DNA of 62,883 nucleotides, the filler included, from Kipferlia bialata (lineage: Eukaryota): NCBI GenBank assembly GCA_003568945.1. It is 5 parts of 5 records of this genome, joined end to end, with 100 filler letters (N's around TTAATTAATTAA, not from the genome) between each part and the next. Parts side by side here need not be neighbours in the genome. Positions count along the whole stretch, not along the records: positions 1 to 17,195 come from BDIP01000536.1; 4 more parts are not named here. One strand, given 5' to 3'. The notes beneath the pieces are model-generated. The model worked only from the letters and a program-made list of their open reading frames with translations, was not told the origin of the DNA and did no database searches. The position numbers and the translations under genes were made by a program. This document shows, one piece after another, positions 522-5,900 of this stretch (position 1 is its first letter; the number at the start of each line of letters is the position of its first letter).

Positions 522-2895
522 AATGTAATTGTATTTGTATAATCATATTCAGAGGGGAGGGGGGGGGGGCTCATATTTACATATATTGTCAATGTTTTAG
601 GTATCCATAACCCCTAGATATGAGGTGCTCAGTGTGGGTGGTGACCAGACGGCATTCGGCGTGGTCAGGGAGAGGTTCCAGGTACGTGTGTATCAGCCCA
701 ATTCATATATTTGTACATAGATACATATGGTTATATATGTATGAGTATGTAATTTCGGGATGGTCAGGGAGAGGTTCAAGGTACCGAGGTACCATTTCTT
801 TGTATATCCTGAGGATGCCAAGAGTTCATATGTATGTATATATGATCATCTGCATATATTATGTTTGACGTGCATACTTGTGTATTAATTCATTTGTGTG
901 TTGAGTCTGACCCTACAGGTCTCCCCCGAGGATGCCATGGTCATTATTACCTCACTGTGTGCATCTAAATATATATATATATGTATGTATAGTCACGTCT
1001 CCTAACCCTCTAGGTCTCCCCCGAGGATGCCATGGTCATCATAGCCAAGGCCAGGGCAAAGCTGGAGGTACGGTTTTCCTCTATTAGTCCGGATTTACTC
1101 TTTGTATATTTAATTTGGTATCAATGGTAGTAGCCGTGGTCATTCCGGATATGACAGCTGTGTTGAATCAAATATCACCAAGTGTATAGAGTTTGTATAG
1201 TGCACTTACCCCTCAGGCTGCTGCCCTTCAGTACAGGTCCACCTGCCTCAGAAGACACGGCACTAACAGGTATCCAACACACAGAATGTCATACATACAC
1301 ATAACTTATGTCAGCACATGTATGTGTATATGCATATACATACATGCAATTTTATGTATATGTATATATACATACATTATTGGAGACACAGGAGCAACAT
1401 GTGTACCATACACATAGAGAGTGTCATACACACGAGCATTATTAGATTTTTCATGTAGTTTGCATATGTGTATAAGTATCTGAGTGCCAGACAGCGCCAG
1501 ACCCTGTGGACCCTTGGAAAACATCCACTATAGTATTCAAATTCTATTTGTATATGCACATGCATCACTGATACCAGACAACGCCAGACCCTGTGGACCC
1601 TTGGCAATGCCCCCAATGAGGGGGATGCTGCACTGATCCACATCAGAACGGTGGCAGGTATATCAGTTATGGCTTAGTATTATAGTGTAGTGTGTATAGT
1701 ATGCAGTGACTATGTATACAATAGTACTATCTGCCACTGGATACCGCCCTGATTCACATCAGAACGGTGGCGGGTGCTGGTATATATACTCACTTATCAC
1801 ATCATTCTGCATATATAGTGGACAACGCTTCTGTTTCGTCCATAGCTGCTTATTTGAATGTGTAATTAGTGTGTTCTTACTCTCAGTCCCCTCCTGGCTA
1901 TCTGCCGCAGAGGCACAGGTAGGAAAGGGAGAGGCAGAGAGAGGGGGAGACACAGAGGGAGAGGGAGAGGGAGAGGAGTCTCTGTCCAAGAGTGCCAGGA
2001 TGACCAGAAGCACACTGGGGAGAGGCGAGGCCGTACGAAGGGAACTACACGCTATAGAGGTGAGAAAACACATACGTATTCATTACCGTTCCTGCTGTAT
2101 ATATTTGTGTTTGCATTGGACTGGATTTCTGTGATGGCACACTATCATAAATATTTATATATATATCGTTTTGCTCTTATCGCCAGGCCTTCCGACCCCT
2201 GCTCCTACCCGAGTGCGCTGCTGCCCAGACACCATCACCCACCTCACCCTCATCCCCTATACACAGTGCATCTACACTCTCGGGGGTAGAGGGAGAACGA
2301 TGCCTGCTGTTACCAACTGTAAAGAGAGAGAGAGGAAGAGGGGAAGACAGAGATAGTGTATGCGCCAAGCAGCTGTCCTGGACGTTCTGCATACGGTCTG
2401 AAGCCCAGGGCACAACGAGGTGAGTCTACGCTGTTTGTATTCATTACACATTAGTGTCTTCTTGTCACATGACCTGTAACGGTGTTGGTACAATTGAAAC
2501 AATAGACATATTGTTGACAGCCAGGCACTGGTCCCCTATTCTGGAAGGTTTGGCTGTTGCAGTGCCCTACTCTGATGGTCACACCTGGCAGGAGGCACAC
2601 ACGCACTGTCACACGCTTCGTGACAAGTTAGAGTGCTGTGACAAGTACCCGAGTGGCCTGGATGGCGTTAACGATCCTGAGGTACTACTCTAGCCACAAT
2701 ATCTACTGAGTGTATGTGACTGCATATTACAGTAGTCTTATGTCAGCGATATGCATATCCCCACACTACATACCAATTGTAAATGAAATTTTACCTCAGA
2801 TCTCTGTTGGCAGCAGCTTCGCTGAGGGCCTTACCATTGCCCCCAGGATCAGTGCTGGACTGTTGTCGGTTGGGTCGTTAGTACTGAGAACTCAG

Positions 2896-2929
<34 letters not shown>

Positions 2930-5900
2930 GTATATATATACATATAATATGTATATATGTGTGTCCCCCAGGATCAGTGCTGGACTGCTGTCGGTTGGGT
3001 CCTTGGTGCTGAGGACACAGGTATATATGTATGTATACATGTATATAGTGCGTTGAACATGGCTATATGAAACTGACTCCCAGCTGGACTCCCAGTGTGT
3101 TGCCCTAGACTCCCAGCGGGTCAGGGCCTTAGTGAGAGTGGCTACCTTCCTACAACAGCCCAATATACTGGTGGAGCAGTACTTGAGGGATACCACTAAG
3201 GTATCGTGATACATATCCAAATAGGACTCTTTCTACGGTATACTTGTTTGTACCTATATGTATACTAACGTATGTGAGTGAGTGGTGATGCTTACCCCAG
3301 TCTGTGTGCATTGAGCCCTCCCTCCCGGCACTTGCTCTTGCTGCTCTGGCGGCACCAGTCAGGTTGAATCCATATATCTGAATATATACATTTGCCTCAT
3401 GCTTTGTCAGCATTATTCCTGGTCTGCATATATGTTATCTGAGAAGAATTTTGCTTAATAGTATATCCATTCATTCATTACAATGTTTATGTATATTGTT
3501 TTAACCTCAGGGGCATCTCCCAAACCAGAAAGGTCGGAGCTGCACCCCCAGTCTATGGGGACGGGTACAACGGAACAGGTAGTCTAGATAGATAGTAAAC
3601 ATATGCTCAGTGTACATTCATACATTTTTTTCAATTTCACTTCCTGCACCATTGTGTATGGATTTACTGATACGGGTATATTGGGACAAATGCATTGAAT
3701 ATTGTGTGATAACAGATTCATGCTTGTTAGATCTCTGTGTCTTTCGATTGCTGACCTCTAGACATCATGGGCTTGGTTGCTGCATCCTTTGAGGTCTCTC
3801 TCAATCTATCTCTCTTTCCCCTCTATATATATATGTGTGGATTTCCATATATGTGTGCATATGTATGTGTTTATCTTAATCTGACCTCTAGATATTATGG
3901 GCATGGTGGCCGCATCCTTTGAGGTGTTGAGAATGAGCATCATCAGGAGACAGTCGAAGGTTAGTAGTTACATGGTTCTTTCCTTTCTTACTGCTGTTGT
4001 ACTATTATTGTGAACCATATTCCTGGTGTGTATAGTAGTAATTATAATCATCAGGGGACAGTCTAAGGTATGGCTAGAGAGCATAGGACTTTGTTGTATG
4101 TACAATGTACTCTATATTTTTGACTCCAGGACCATGTAATGTCTGTGCGTTTATATATATATATATATGTGTGTGTGTATGTGTGTACAATTTATACATG
4201 AATATATACAACACTACATACATCTGACCCCCAGGGCCACGGTCTGTCTGTTGTGGCCACCAGGGTGGATACCCTTCTGAACAGATGGGAGCAGACAACA
4301 GCCCAGGTATATTACTGATATATATAGAATATATATAGTGTATAGTATGTATATATTCCAAAGCAATACTAATATGGTGGACACCCTTCTGAGCAGCTGG
4401 GAGCAGACAATTGCACAGGTGGGATCGAGTTTCTATAAGTAGTAGAATAGTAGTGTAATAGCACAGGATTATACATGTGCATATATGTCATCTACATTAT
4501 GTATAGTCTTTCCTGCACAGATGGGAGCAGACGACAGCACAGGTGGGCTCAAGATAGTATACTATAGTATGGAATATAGCACTCTTCTCTATCTTCCAGG
4601 TTGTAGTCAGATATCCCAATAATTATTTGGCTATCTTTTCCTCACCCCCAGCCCTTCTCCCAAGACTCTTTCTTCCAGACCCCGCACAGCAGGGGCATGG
4701 GGAGGCACATACCGGGTTTGTATTTGTATTTATACATGAATCTTATATGTACACTGATATATATACAGTCATAATTGAATAGTAGAAATACTATTGAACT
4801 ATATCCTGACCCCGCACAGCAGGCGCATGGGTAGACACATACCGGGTAAGTGTGATACCAATAATTATTAAGGCAATGTGATTAATTCACAATTAGTCAT
4901 TATATTATATATCCAGACCCCCCACTGCAGGTGCATGGGCAGACACATGTCAGGCATGAGTATATATATAAATATATGTATATACATCATGTCTATGTAC
5001 ACTCTATACGTAGCAGTCTGACTCTAGGCCACCACAGCCTATATATGTACACACACACATATATATGTATATATATGTATTTATTTGTGTACCATTGTAT
5101 ATATGCCTGACTCCAGGCCACCATAGTCCTGGTATGGCCACCCCTCGGGGTCATGTCAGTGTATCAGCACCACCGGAGATGAGGGGCACTTCCATTGGAG
5201 GTATGCGTATACACCGTCTCTTTGTAATGTCGTATGATCTTTTTCCCACCCTCTACTGACTACAACACCCGGAGCCCCTCATCTTACCCCAGGTGCCTGC
5301 AGGCACCCCTCCGAGCCCTACCAGCAGCATATATATACATACCTATATACATCTATATAGTGTATTATTACATATTACATATAACTGGCTTACTCCAGGT
5401 GCCAGTAGACACCCCTCCGAGCCCTACCAGCAGCAGTACAGGAGCAATGCCCTGGTGTCACTCTTCATGAGCATAGAGGGGGCTAGGTACAATATATATA
5501 TACTCTAGGGTATATATGTATACATGTGTATATTGTAATACATGTAGTAGCGTATGCTTTGTTGTCACTCTTCATGAGCATAGAGGGGGCTAGGTATATG
5601 CTGAATATAGTGTTGGTGGTTATATAGAAGTATATATATAGTAATATATATAATAGCGTATGCCCTGGTGTCACTCTTCATGAGCATAGAAGGGGCTAGG
5701 TAGTATGCTGAATGTAGTGCTAGTATACTAGTGGTTAAATATATATATATATATATATGCCCTGGTGTCACTCTTCATGAGCATAGAGGCGGCTAGGTGC
5801 GTATTGATTATAGTATTGGTGTATTCCTTTGTCTTCTCTCTCTATTTCAATGTTCATATACATATATAGACATCTCACAGTGGTGTGTCTAACCTACATG

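What the first reader, a model, noticed from the sequence alone, without database searches (positions are those of the whole stretch)
2842..3020. Intronic echo differs from the exon only at synonymous sites (6 silent, 0 replacement) yet cannot be spliced in frame
Seen: exon CCC AGG ATC AGT GCT GGA CTG TTG TCG GTT GGG TCG TTA GTA CTG AGA ACT CAG|GT versus echo CCC AGG ATC AGT GCT GGA CTG CTG TCG GTT GGG TCC TTG GTG CTG AGG ACA CAG|GT. All six differences are silent. The 71-nt spacer breaks frame if read through, and using the echo's CCCAG as an acceptor gives the wrong phase. Established: a neutrally decaying copy should mostly gain replacement changes. Inference: echoes descend from formerly functional versions of the exon (captured from diverged alleles by unequal recombination or repair, or swapped in and out by duplication-deletion cycles), so the introns act as an archive of allelic exon variants.
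Basis: partly seen in the sequence, partly recalled or inferred. Interest (0 to 1): 0.9.

Follow-up and report, generated by a model that had tools for sequence, protein, structure and literature searches.

The report
Introns archiving other alleles' exon ends
In a gene of the free-living protist Kipferlia bialata, introns hold dozens of short copies of the neighbouring exon's end that differ from it mostly at silent positions, so they are likely leftovers of other working alleles, and a single genome would then record its population's variation.

Summary
In detail: 2842-2895 and 2967-3020 differ at 6 of 54 bases, all silent. The first copy ends exon 8 of Kipferlia bialata KIPB_002973, and an assembled transcript carries it unchanged up to 2888. 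The echo is one of 46, at 28 of 72 exon sides in this gene (0 of 1260 non-adjacent controls). Pooled differences are 98 silent and 48 replacement; pN/pS 0.16 (bootstrap 0.11-0.23), against about 0.5 for a dead copy of the same allele. Echoes keep GT, AG and branch-point motifs, while their intron flanks are mostly no more alike than unrelated introns. Replacement changes look random, and some echoes carry a stop or frameshift. Best reading (0.6): echoes are recently retired exon-intron junctions of diverged alleles, moved by unequal recombination between homologues. This is inferred: no second allele or strain was seen, and a still-coding echo fits the pooled numbers equally well. 'Cannot be spliced in frame' is too strong: four phase-2 GT sites exist, unused in the transcript. 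The structure resembles amphioxus 'mirages' but differs in density, in unalignable intron parts and in the coding-type divergence measured here.

The parts
2800..2895 (+). Exon 8 of KIPB_002973 (phase 0 to phase 0)
   Evidence: Protein-to-genome mapping; spliced contig of run X2 covers 2798-2888 with 0 other letters
2840..2895 (+). Exon end that is echoed (copy 1, the working copy)
2877..2882 (+). Latent phase-2 donor-like GTTAGT inside copy 1; would join in frame to the echo's AG, but the transcript contig reads through it
2896..2964 (+). Authentic donor GT and TA-rich spacer without a branch-point motif near its end
2965..3020 (+). Echo: 56-nt intronic copy of the exon end, 6 silent and 0 replacement differences
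3021..3083 (+). Echo's own GT followed by a complete-looking 63-nt intron with CTGAC (3073-3077) and acceptor AG (3082-3083)
   Evidence: Sequence; acceptor
3084..3200 (+). Exon 9
12860..13435 (+). Array of five acceptor echoes before exon 34 (13392): shared far end, up to four states at one four-fold site, mostly different acceptor sequences
619..14619 (+). Host gene KIPB_002973 (annotated as partial; 37 exons) carrying 46 echoes at 28 of 72 exon sides

Best explanation
The stretch at 2965-3020 is an intronic, likely non-coding copy of the end of exon 8 of Kipferlia bialata gene KIPB_002973, one of 46 such copies in this gene, and it is likely the former working exon-intron junction of a different, diverged allele, likely placed beside the present exon by unequal recombination between homologous chromosomes. 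Shown: copies sit only in the intron next to the exon end they copy; they keep splice signals; they differ mainly at silent sites; they lose similarity at the splice site; members of an array share their far end; the transcript skips the four echoes that were laid. Inferred: (1) alleles in the wild population differ at about 20-30% of silent sites and have unalignable, microsatellite-rich introns, so only exon cores can pair; (2) a first echo forms when repair copies across a junction from the homologue and rejoins at a microhomology; (3) later crossovers between an exon and an echo on the other homologue demote a working junction to a new echo that inherits the old far end; (4) copies of whole exons or of exon interiors are removed by selection, while junction copies are tolerated because the outermost donor and acceptor are chosen; (5) echoes then decay neutrally for a short time (dN about 0.045) and are lost.
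For: Specificity: 28 of 72 adjacent exon/intron sides against 0 of 1260 non-adjacent pairs; 23 of 24 donor echoes and 22 of 22 acceptor echoes reach within 5 nt of the splice site. The 18 single echoes give 0.13. Bootstrap over 28 exon sides 0.11-0.23, none of 3000 resamples at or above 0.45. Echo-versus-echo 72 silent and 44 replacement, ratio 0.23 (29 non-independent pairs). Eight pairs in other genes 9 and 6, ratio 0.19, with hand-set frames. Splice signals are kept while the sequence differs: GT 22 of 24, AG 21 of 22; branch-point motif 17 of 22 against 31 of 36 real acceptors and 20% background; only 6 of 45 intron flanks score above all unrelated flanks. Now dead: replacement changes are no more conservative than random (mean BLOSUM -0.64 vs -0.60, p 0.58), 1 stop; internal indels in up to 4 of 46, one clear 1-nt deletion; spacing mod 3 is even (14/17/14) and 3 of 45 read-throughs are open; 4 of 4 laid echoes are skipped in the transcript. 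Polarity: pS 0.40 within 10 nt of the splice site against 0.20 beyond (bootstrap ratio 1.27-2.99), pN flat (0.60-2.14). Far ends agree within 8 nt in 7 of 10 arrays. Three or more states occur at 4 of 59 four-fold sites and 0 of 102 second positions. Precedent read by eye in the amphioxus BflGb6 alignment: the two haplotype exons differ at about five silent sites, and units D3-D5 of haplotype 1 carry several haplotype-2 codons. Fornicates lack NHEJ and Rad51 and keep two Dmc1 paralogs (PMC8516963 passages); that Dmc1 favours homologue templates and tolerates mismatches is recalled, not from a call.
Against: No diverged second allele was seen. On 600-2888 the DNA run gave one long contig with no other letters, and all other listed pieces were 31-32-nt repeat matches (4 pieces not shown; contigs can drop variants). 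The protein cluster has one member. The required silent diversity is very high and unmeasured. A simulation of echoes that are still coding at dN/dS 0.15 fits the pooled pS, pN and ratio as well as the recently-dead model. Intron flanks at background identity imply more divergence than dS 0.3 would predict, so an extra fast turnover of intron sequence must be assumed. The predicted rise of pN with distance from the exon is weak (0.030 vs 0.058, p 0.19). Exons after 2888 rest on the annotated model, not on RNA laid here. Most data come from one gene.
Confidence: 0.6

Rival explanations
1. Echoes are old duplications whose exon-like part is kept fresh by gene conversion from working exons of other alleles; the junction itself was never the working one.
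For: Explains near-identical exon parts beside unrelated intron flanks. Echoes 5554 and 5660 share their outer junction by eye yet differ at 3 silent and 1 replacement site.
Against: Echo acceptors differ in sequence from the present acceptor but keep a branch-point motif (17 of 22 vs 20% background), which points to past selection on the junction itself. Conversion from the same allele should lower pN and pS together, but only pS shows a gradient. Still needs diverged alleles.
Confidence: 0.15
2. Echoes are used now, at low level or in some conditions, through alternative or stepwise splicing, and are held by selection on the protein.
For: A coding echo at dN/dS 0.15 reproduces the pooled numbers. 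Splice signals are kept. Exons with acceptor echoes start with GT more often (8 of 16 vs 3 of 20, p 0.03, post hoc).
Against: The transcript contig skips 4 of 4 laid echoes and shows no other letters. Echoes have only one of the two splice sites. Spacing is not biased to multiples of three. Replacement changes are random-like and some echoes carry a stop or frameshift. Contigs cannot exclude rare isoforms.
Confidence: 0.12
3. Ordinary tandem duplication of one allele followed by neutral decay, with or without conversion inside the same chromosome; the reader's pair is a lucky draw.
For: Tandem geometry with an 80-135 nt period in many cases; a few flanks are still alike (6 of 45); the pair is the extreme of 46.
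Against: The simulation through the same detector gives mean ratios 0.46-0.53. At the divergences nearest the observed pS the lowest of 60 runs was 0.38-0.42; one run at much lower divergence reached 0.175. Observed 0.16, interval 0.11-0.23. Neutral flanks are at background identity while echoes keep about 90%.
Confidence: 0.05
4. Assembly artefact: two haplotypes placed in tandem.
For: The species is reported as diploid and assembled from short reads (PMC5874029). This particular pair was not spanned by a laid contig.
Against: One separately assembled DNA contig of run X1 matches 600-1312 and 1382-2888 with no other letters or gaps and so contains four exon/echo pairs (X1 may be the source of this DNA). 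Arrays of five or six different units cannot come from two haplotypes. Echoes carry stops and indels.
Confidence: 0.04

Closest known systems
Amphioxus 'mirages' (Adh3, troponin C, globins BflGb6/BflGb9, PGBD5; PMC3087553 passages and supplement 4, PMC3902484 passages)
   Same: Tandem copies of an exon-intron boundary on either the donor or the acceptor side, most keeping AG/GT, in arrays of up to six units, without visible effect on the mRNA; unequal crossing-over proposed there too.
   Different: In BflGb6 the intron part of each unit aligns well and units are 81-100% identical with concerted evolution. Here the intron part is at background identity in 39 of 45 cases. Density is far higher (46 copies in one gene), the host is a fornicate protist, and the passages I read report no silent/replacement analysis or allelic origin.
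Human F7 intron 7 37-bp VNTR (PMC1557585, abstract)
   Same: Repeated donor sites downstream of the authentic one stay silent; the most upstream donor is chosen.
   Different: Near-identical minisatellite units at one locus; no coding-type divergence described in the abstract.
Intron gain by tandem duplication of AG/GT (Rogers model; PMC3265369 abstract, PMC2812944 passages)
   Same: A short duplication near splice-like sequence; the copy lies in an intron.
   Different: There the duplication creates a new intron and the downstream copy becomes exon. Here an existing junction is copied and no new intron or exon is used in the part that was laid.

Membership tests
Mirage repeats (amphioxus type) | Tandem duplication that spans one exon-intron boundary and lies in the adjoining intron | tested here: met
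   45 of 46 echoes reach within 5 nt of the adjoining splice site; 0 of 1260 non-adjacent pairs
Mirage repeats (amphioxus type) | Most units keep AG/GT splice signals | tested here: met
   GT 22 of 24, AG 21 of 22
Mirage repeats (amphioxus type) | Normal splicing is not disturbed | tested here: met
   4 of 4 echoes in 600-2888 skipped by the transcript contig; minor isoforms and the echo at 2965 not tested
Mirage repeats (amphioxus type) | Minisatellite-like units alike over their whole length, intron part included (81-100% in BflGb6) | tested here: not met
   Identity falls to background 2-3 nt past GT; 6 of 45 flanks beat unrelated flanks
Mirage repeats (amphioxus type) | Copy number varies between haplotypes or somatically | not testable with these tools
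   One sample only; no second strain
Intron gain by tandem duplication | Donor in the first copy and acceptor in the second copy are used, making the second copy exon | tested here: not met
   Transcript matches copy 1 through 2888, past four of the six diagnostic sites; no AG/GT at the start of the repeat
Duplicated alternative (cassette or mutually exclusive) exon | Copy has its own acceptor with branch point and a phase compatible with the neighbours | tested here: not met
   Echo AG is phase 2 against a phase-0 donor and lacks a branch-point motif

The most novel reading that the evidence does not exclude
Kipferlia's introns are a running archive of its population's alleles. Recombination that relies on Dmc1 without Rad51 or NHEJ repairs breaks from diverged homologues and keeps demoting working exon-intron junctions into tandem echoes. 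A single genome would then reveal hidden sex and silent diversity near 0.25, and the same process may lengthen and renew its introns and seed new ones.
Probability: 0.35. Interest if true: 0.78.

Novelty: new variant of a known kind. Interest (0 to 1): 0.58.

Why it matters
If true, echoes give evidence of recombination between diverged alleles, and an estimate of diversity, from one genome of a lineage whose sexual cycle I do not know to have been observed (recalled). They also supply a testable origin for amphioxus mirages, whose mechanism PMC3087553 calls unclear. They offer thousands of natural tests of how a reduced spliceosome (87 of 174 proteins found, no snRNA candidates; PMC6679479 passages) ignores perfect-looking decoy splice sites. 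They bear on whether Kipferlia's 124,912 introns are ancestral or renewed. In practice they can mislead gene prediction and read mapping in this genome.

Tried and rejected
No whole genome is held for this window, so statistics rest on the window. No RNA holder is on record as RNA; X2 is RNA by the tool's guess, and its contig shows GT..AG joints. Contigs were laid on 600-2888 only, which leaves the echo and everything downstream without read evidence. No relative in JGI metagenomes by protein (583 pattern matches, 0 confirmed) or by a degenerate DNA pattern (0). No homologue of the protein other than itself and no Pfam family, so the exon's own dN/dS could not be calibrated. Earlier-findings look-ups returned nothing. 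Rejected: a GA-type or internal GT donor making the echo the true exon (transcript follows copy 1). Rejected: in-frame read-through as a general function. Rejected: codon preference as the cause (exon codon commoner 45 times, echo codon 41 times). Rejected: transition bias (27 transitions, 47 transversions at four-fold sites; ratio 0.19 or less at kappa 5). Rejected: detection bias (simulation). A spliced-cDNA origin was set aside by inspection, because echoes continue into GT and not into the next exon. Nine paper searches found no description of these repeats in Kipferlia; the library lacks most subscription papers, and the original mirage papers were not seen. The amphioxus alignment was read by eye only and not counted by script.
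Full report
Identity of the locus. A 52-residue piece of the exon before the finding matches one protein in the database, NCBI's hypothetical protein KIPB_002973 of Kipferlia bialata, on a 17,195-nt contig. This agrees with the first of five contigs that the window joins with linkers. The 1102-residue protein maps exactly onto 37 GT-AG exons at 619-14619. It has no Pfam family and no other homologue in two searches. The genome paper reports 124,912 GU-AG introns, a diploid k-mer profile and a short-read assembly (PMC5874029, passages and methods section); the passages found for intron, repeat and duplication terms do not mention these copies.

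The observation. The two 54-mers differ at six positions, all silent in the coding frame, with a 71-nt spacer. Copy 1 is the end of exon 8 (2800-2895). A 5216-nt spliced contig of run X2 shows seven GT..AG joints in 616-2888 that agree with the model and matches copy 1 to 2888 with no other letters, which covers four of the six diagnostic sites. The echo lies in the intron in the annotated model and is followed by its own GT and a complete-looking 63-nt intron. The claim that no in-frame splice exists is too strong: four phase-2 GT sites in exon 8 would join in frame to the echo's AG. The transcript ignores them and the echo's AG has no branch-point motif.

It is one of many. A local-alignment search of each exon against its two neighbouring introns found 46 echoes of 18-56 nt at 28 of 72 exon sides. 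The same search found none in 1260 non-adjacent exon/intron pairs. Donor echoes copy the 3' end of the exon and lie after it (23 of 24 reach within 5 nt of the splice site); acceptor echoes copy the 5' end and lie before it (22 of 22). One DNA contig of run X1 contains four exon/echo pairs with no other letters, and the transcript skips all four. X1 may be the source of this DNA, and its depth of 378.7 has no genome-wide reference here. Introns with echoes are longer, 167-861 nt against 65-426 nt. The other four contigs hold only a handful.

The silent bias is general. Pooled over the 46 echoes there are 98 silent and 48 replacement differences: pS 0.25, pN 0.042, ratio 0.17, against 1.9 and 3.4 in the shifted frames. 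Corrected values are 0.14-0.19 for kappa 1 to 5. It is 0.13 for the 18 single echoes, 0.16 for donors, 0.17 for acceptors and 0.08 for the five echoes of RNA-checked exons. A bootstrap over exon sides gives 0.11-0.23. The right null is 0.5, not 1, because a dead copy of the same allele differs from the exon by silent changes on both lines and by replacement changes on one. A simulation through the same detector gave means of 0.46-0.53; the lowest of 60 runs was 0.38-0.42 at the divergences nearest the observed pS, and 0.175 once at much lower divergence. The data reject 0.5 at p about 1e-7. By my reasoning, conversion within one chromosome cannot lower this floor for a single echo. Echoes also differ from each other mostly at silent sites (72 vs 44, ratio 0.23; pairs not independent). 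Differences private to one echo of an array are 27 silent and 24 replacement (ratio 0.30). Eight pairs from other genes, with frames set by hand, give 9 and 6.

Three further features point to junctions that worked until recently. First, identity falls to the level of unrelated introns two to three bases past GT, and only 6 of 45 flanks beat all unrelated flanks (one echo with N dropped). A copy that had been neutral as long as its flank would be unrecognisable. Second, GT is kept in 22 of 24 and AG in 21 of 22. A branch-point motif (my pattern, recalled consensus) stands before 17 of 22 echo acceptors against 31 of 36 real ones and 20% of intron background, although the acceptor sequences themselves mostly differ from the present one. 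Third, the replacement changes look like random decay: BLOSUM no better than chance, one stop against 1.6 expected, and internal indels in up to 4 of 46, one a clear single-base deletion. Spacing shows no bias to multiples of three and only 3 of 45 read-throughs are open.

Mechanism. pS is 0.40 within 10 nt of the splice site and 0.20 beyond, while pN is flat near 0.045. I read this as uniform short decay laid over allelic divergence that rises toward unalignable introns. In 7 of 10 arrays all members share their far end within 8 nt. The five echoes before exon 34 share a far end; four carry the same derived codon (the fifth is shifted there), and they show up to four states at one four-fold site near the acceptor. 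More than two source haplotypes, or repeated change, are therefore needed. Unequal crossing-over between an exon and an echo on the other homologue predicts this pattern: the splice-proximal part comes from a working allele and the far end from the older echo. It also predicts younger echoes next to the exon, which is only weakly seen (pN 0.030 vs 0.058, p 0.19). Fornicates lack NHEJ and Rad51 and keep two Dmc1 paralogs (PMC8516963 passages). That Dmc1 favours homologues and tolerates mismatch is recalled, and the link to echoes is inference.

Against this reading. No diverged second allele appeared on 600-2888, the protein cluster has one member, and no other strain was found. The model needs very high silent diversity that nobody has measured here. 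An echo still coding at dN/dS 0.15 fits the pooled numbers equally well; only the stops, indels, single splice site and skipping in the transcript argue against it, and contigs hide rare isoforms. Flanks are more diverged than dS 0.3 would predict. Exons after 2888 rest on the annotation. Most of the data are from one unusually rich gene.

Comparison with known systems. The nearest are the amphioxus mirages: tandem copies of exon-intron boundaries in Adh3, troponin C, globins and PGBD5 that keep AG/GT, do not disturb splicing and vary in number between haplotypes, with the mechanism called unclear (PMC3087553 passages; PMC3902484 passages; the original papers were not seen). In the BflGb6 alignment (supplement 4, read by eye) the intron parts align well, unlike here. 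There the two haplotype exons differ at about five silent sites and some units of haplotype 1 carry haplotype-2 codons, which fits the allelic model. The human F7 repeat shows that downstream duplicate donors can stay silent (PMC1557585, abstract). Intron gain by duplication (PMC3265369 abstract; PMC2812944 passages) differs in that the second copy becomes exon. The echoes work like mirages but fail the whole-unit similarity feature, so I file them as a variant, not as members. Nine searches (listings only, apart from the eight papers opened) found no report of them in Kipferlia; unread supplements of the genome paper could bear on this.

Verdict. Real feature, confirmed; a gene-wide coding-type divergence between exons and their intronic copies is shown; the allelic origin is likely but unobserved (0.6, or 0.75 with the conversion variant). 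New variant of a known kind; interest 0.58.

Noticed in passing
window 17240, 34526, 51808, 60828: The window is five contigs joined by N runs with a 12-base linker; neighbours across these points are not neighbours in the genome.
   Followed up: yes
window 60-525: Array of six donor echoes of an exon that lies upstream of the window; the transcript's loose end gives that exon's end. By eye some units carry a one-base insertion or a stop. Not included in the counts.
   Followed up: partly
window 619-14619: Exons with an acceptor echo start with GT more often (8 of 16) than those without (3 of 20), p 0.03, post hoc. Such echoes form AG/GT sites that stepwise splicing could rescue.
   Followed up: partly
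window 1-17196 versus the rest: Echoes are dense in the first, AT-richer contig (GC 0.42) and scarce in the others (about ten loci in 45 kb, one or none in the two GC-richest pieces), so the process looks regional.
   Followed up: partly
window 13074-13435: A 144-nt unit is repeated with a nearly identical spacer but different silent variants in the echo before it, a sign of recombination among array units.
   Followed up: partly
window 34630-37821, 14848-16096, 60036-60452: Spliced genes that by eye resemble a SulP-type anion transporter (with three echoes), an Arf-like GTPase and an Sm/Lsm protein. The names are recalled and come from no call.
   Followed up: no
window 16890-17140: Two short stretches resemble tRNA T-arm sequence on the minus strand near the contig end (by eye); not scanned.
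   Followed up: no
window 38296-42487 (-): Long acidic, cysteine- and proline-rich open frames with repeated units, likely a surface or secreted protein.
   Followed up: no
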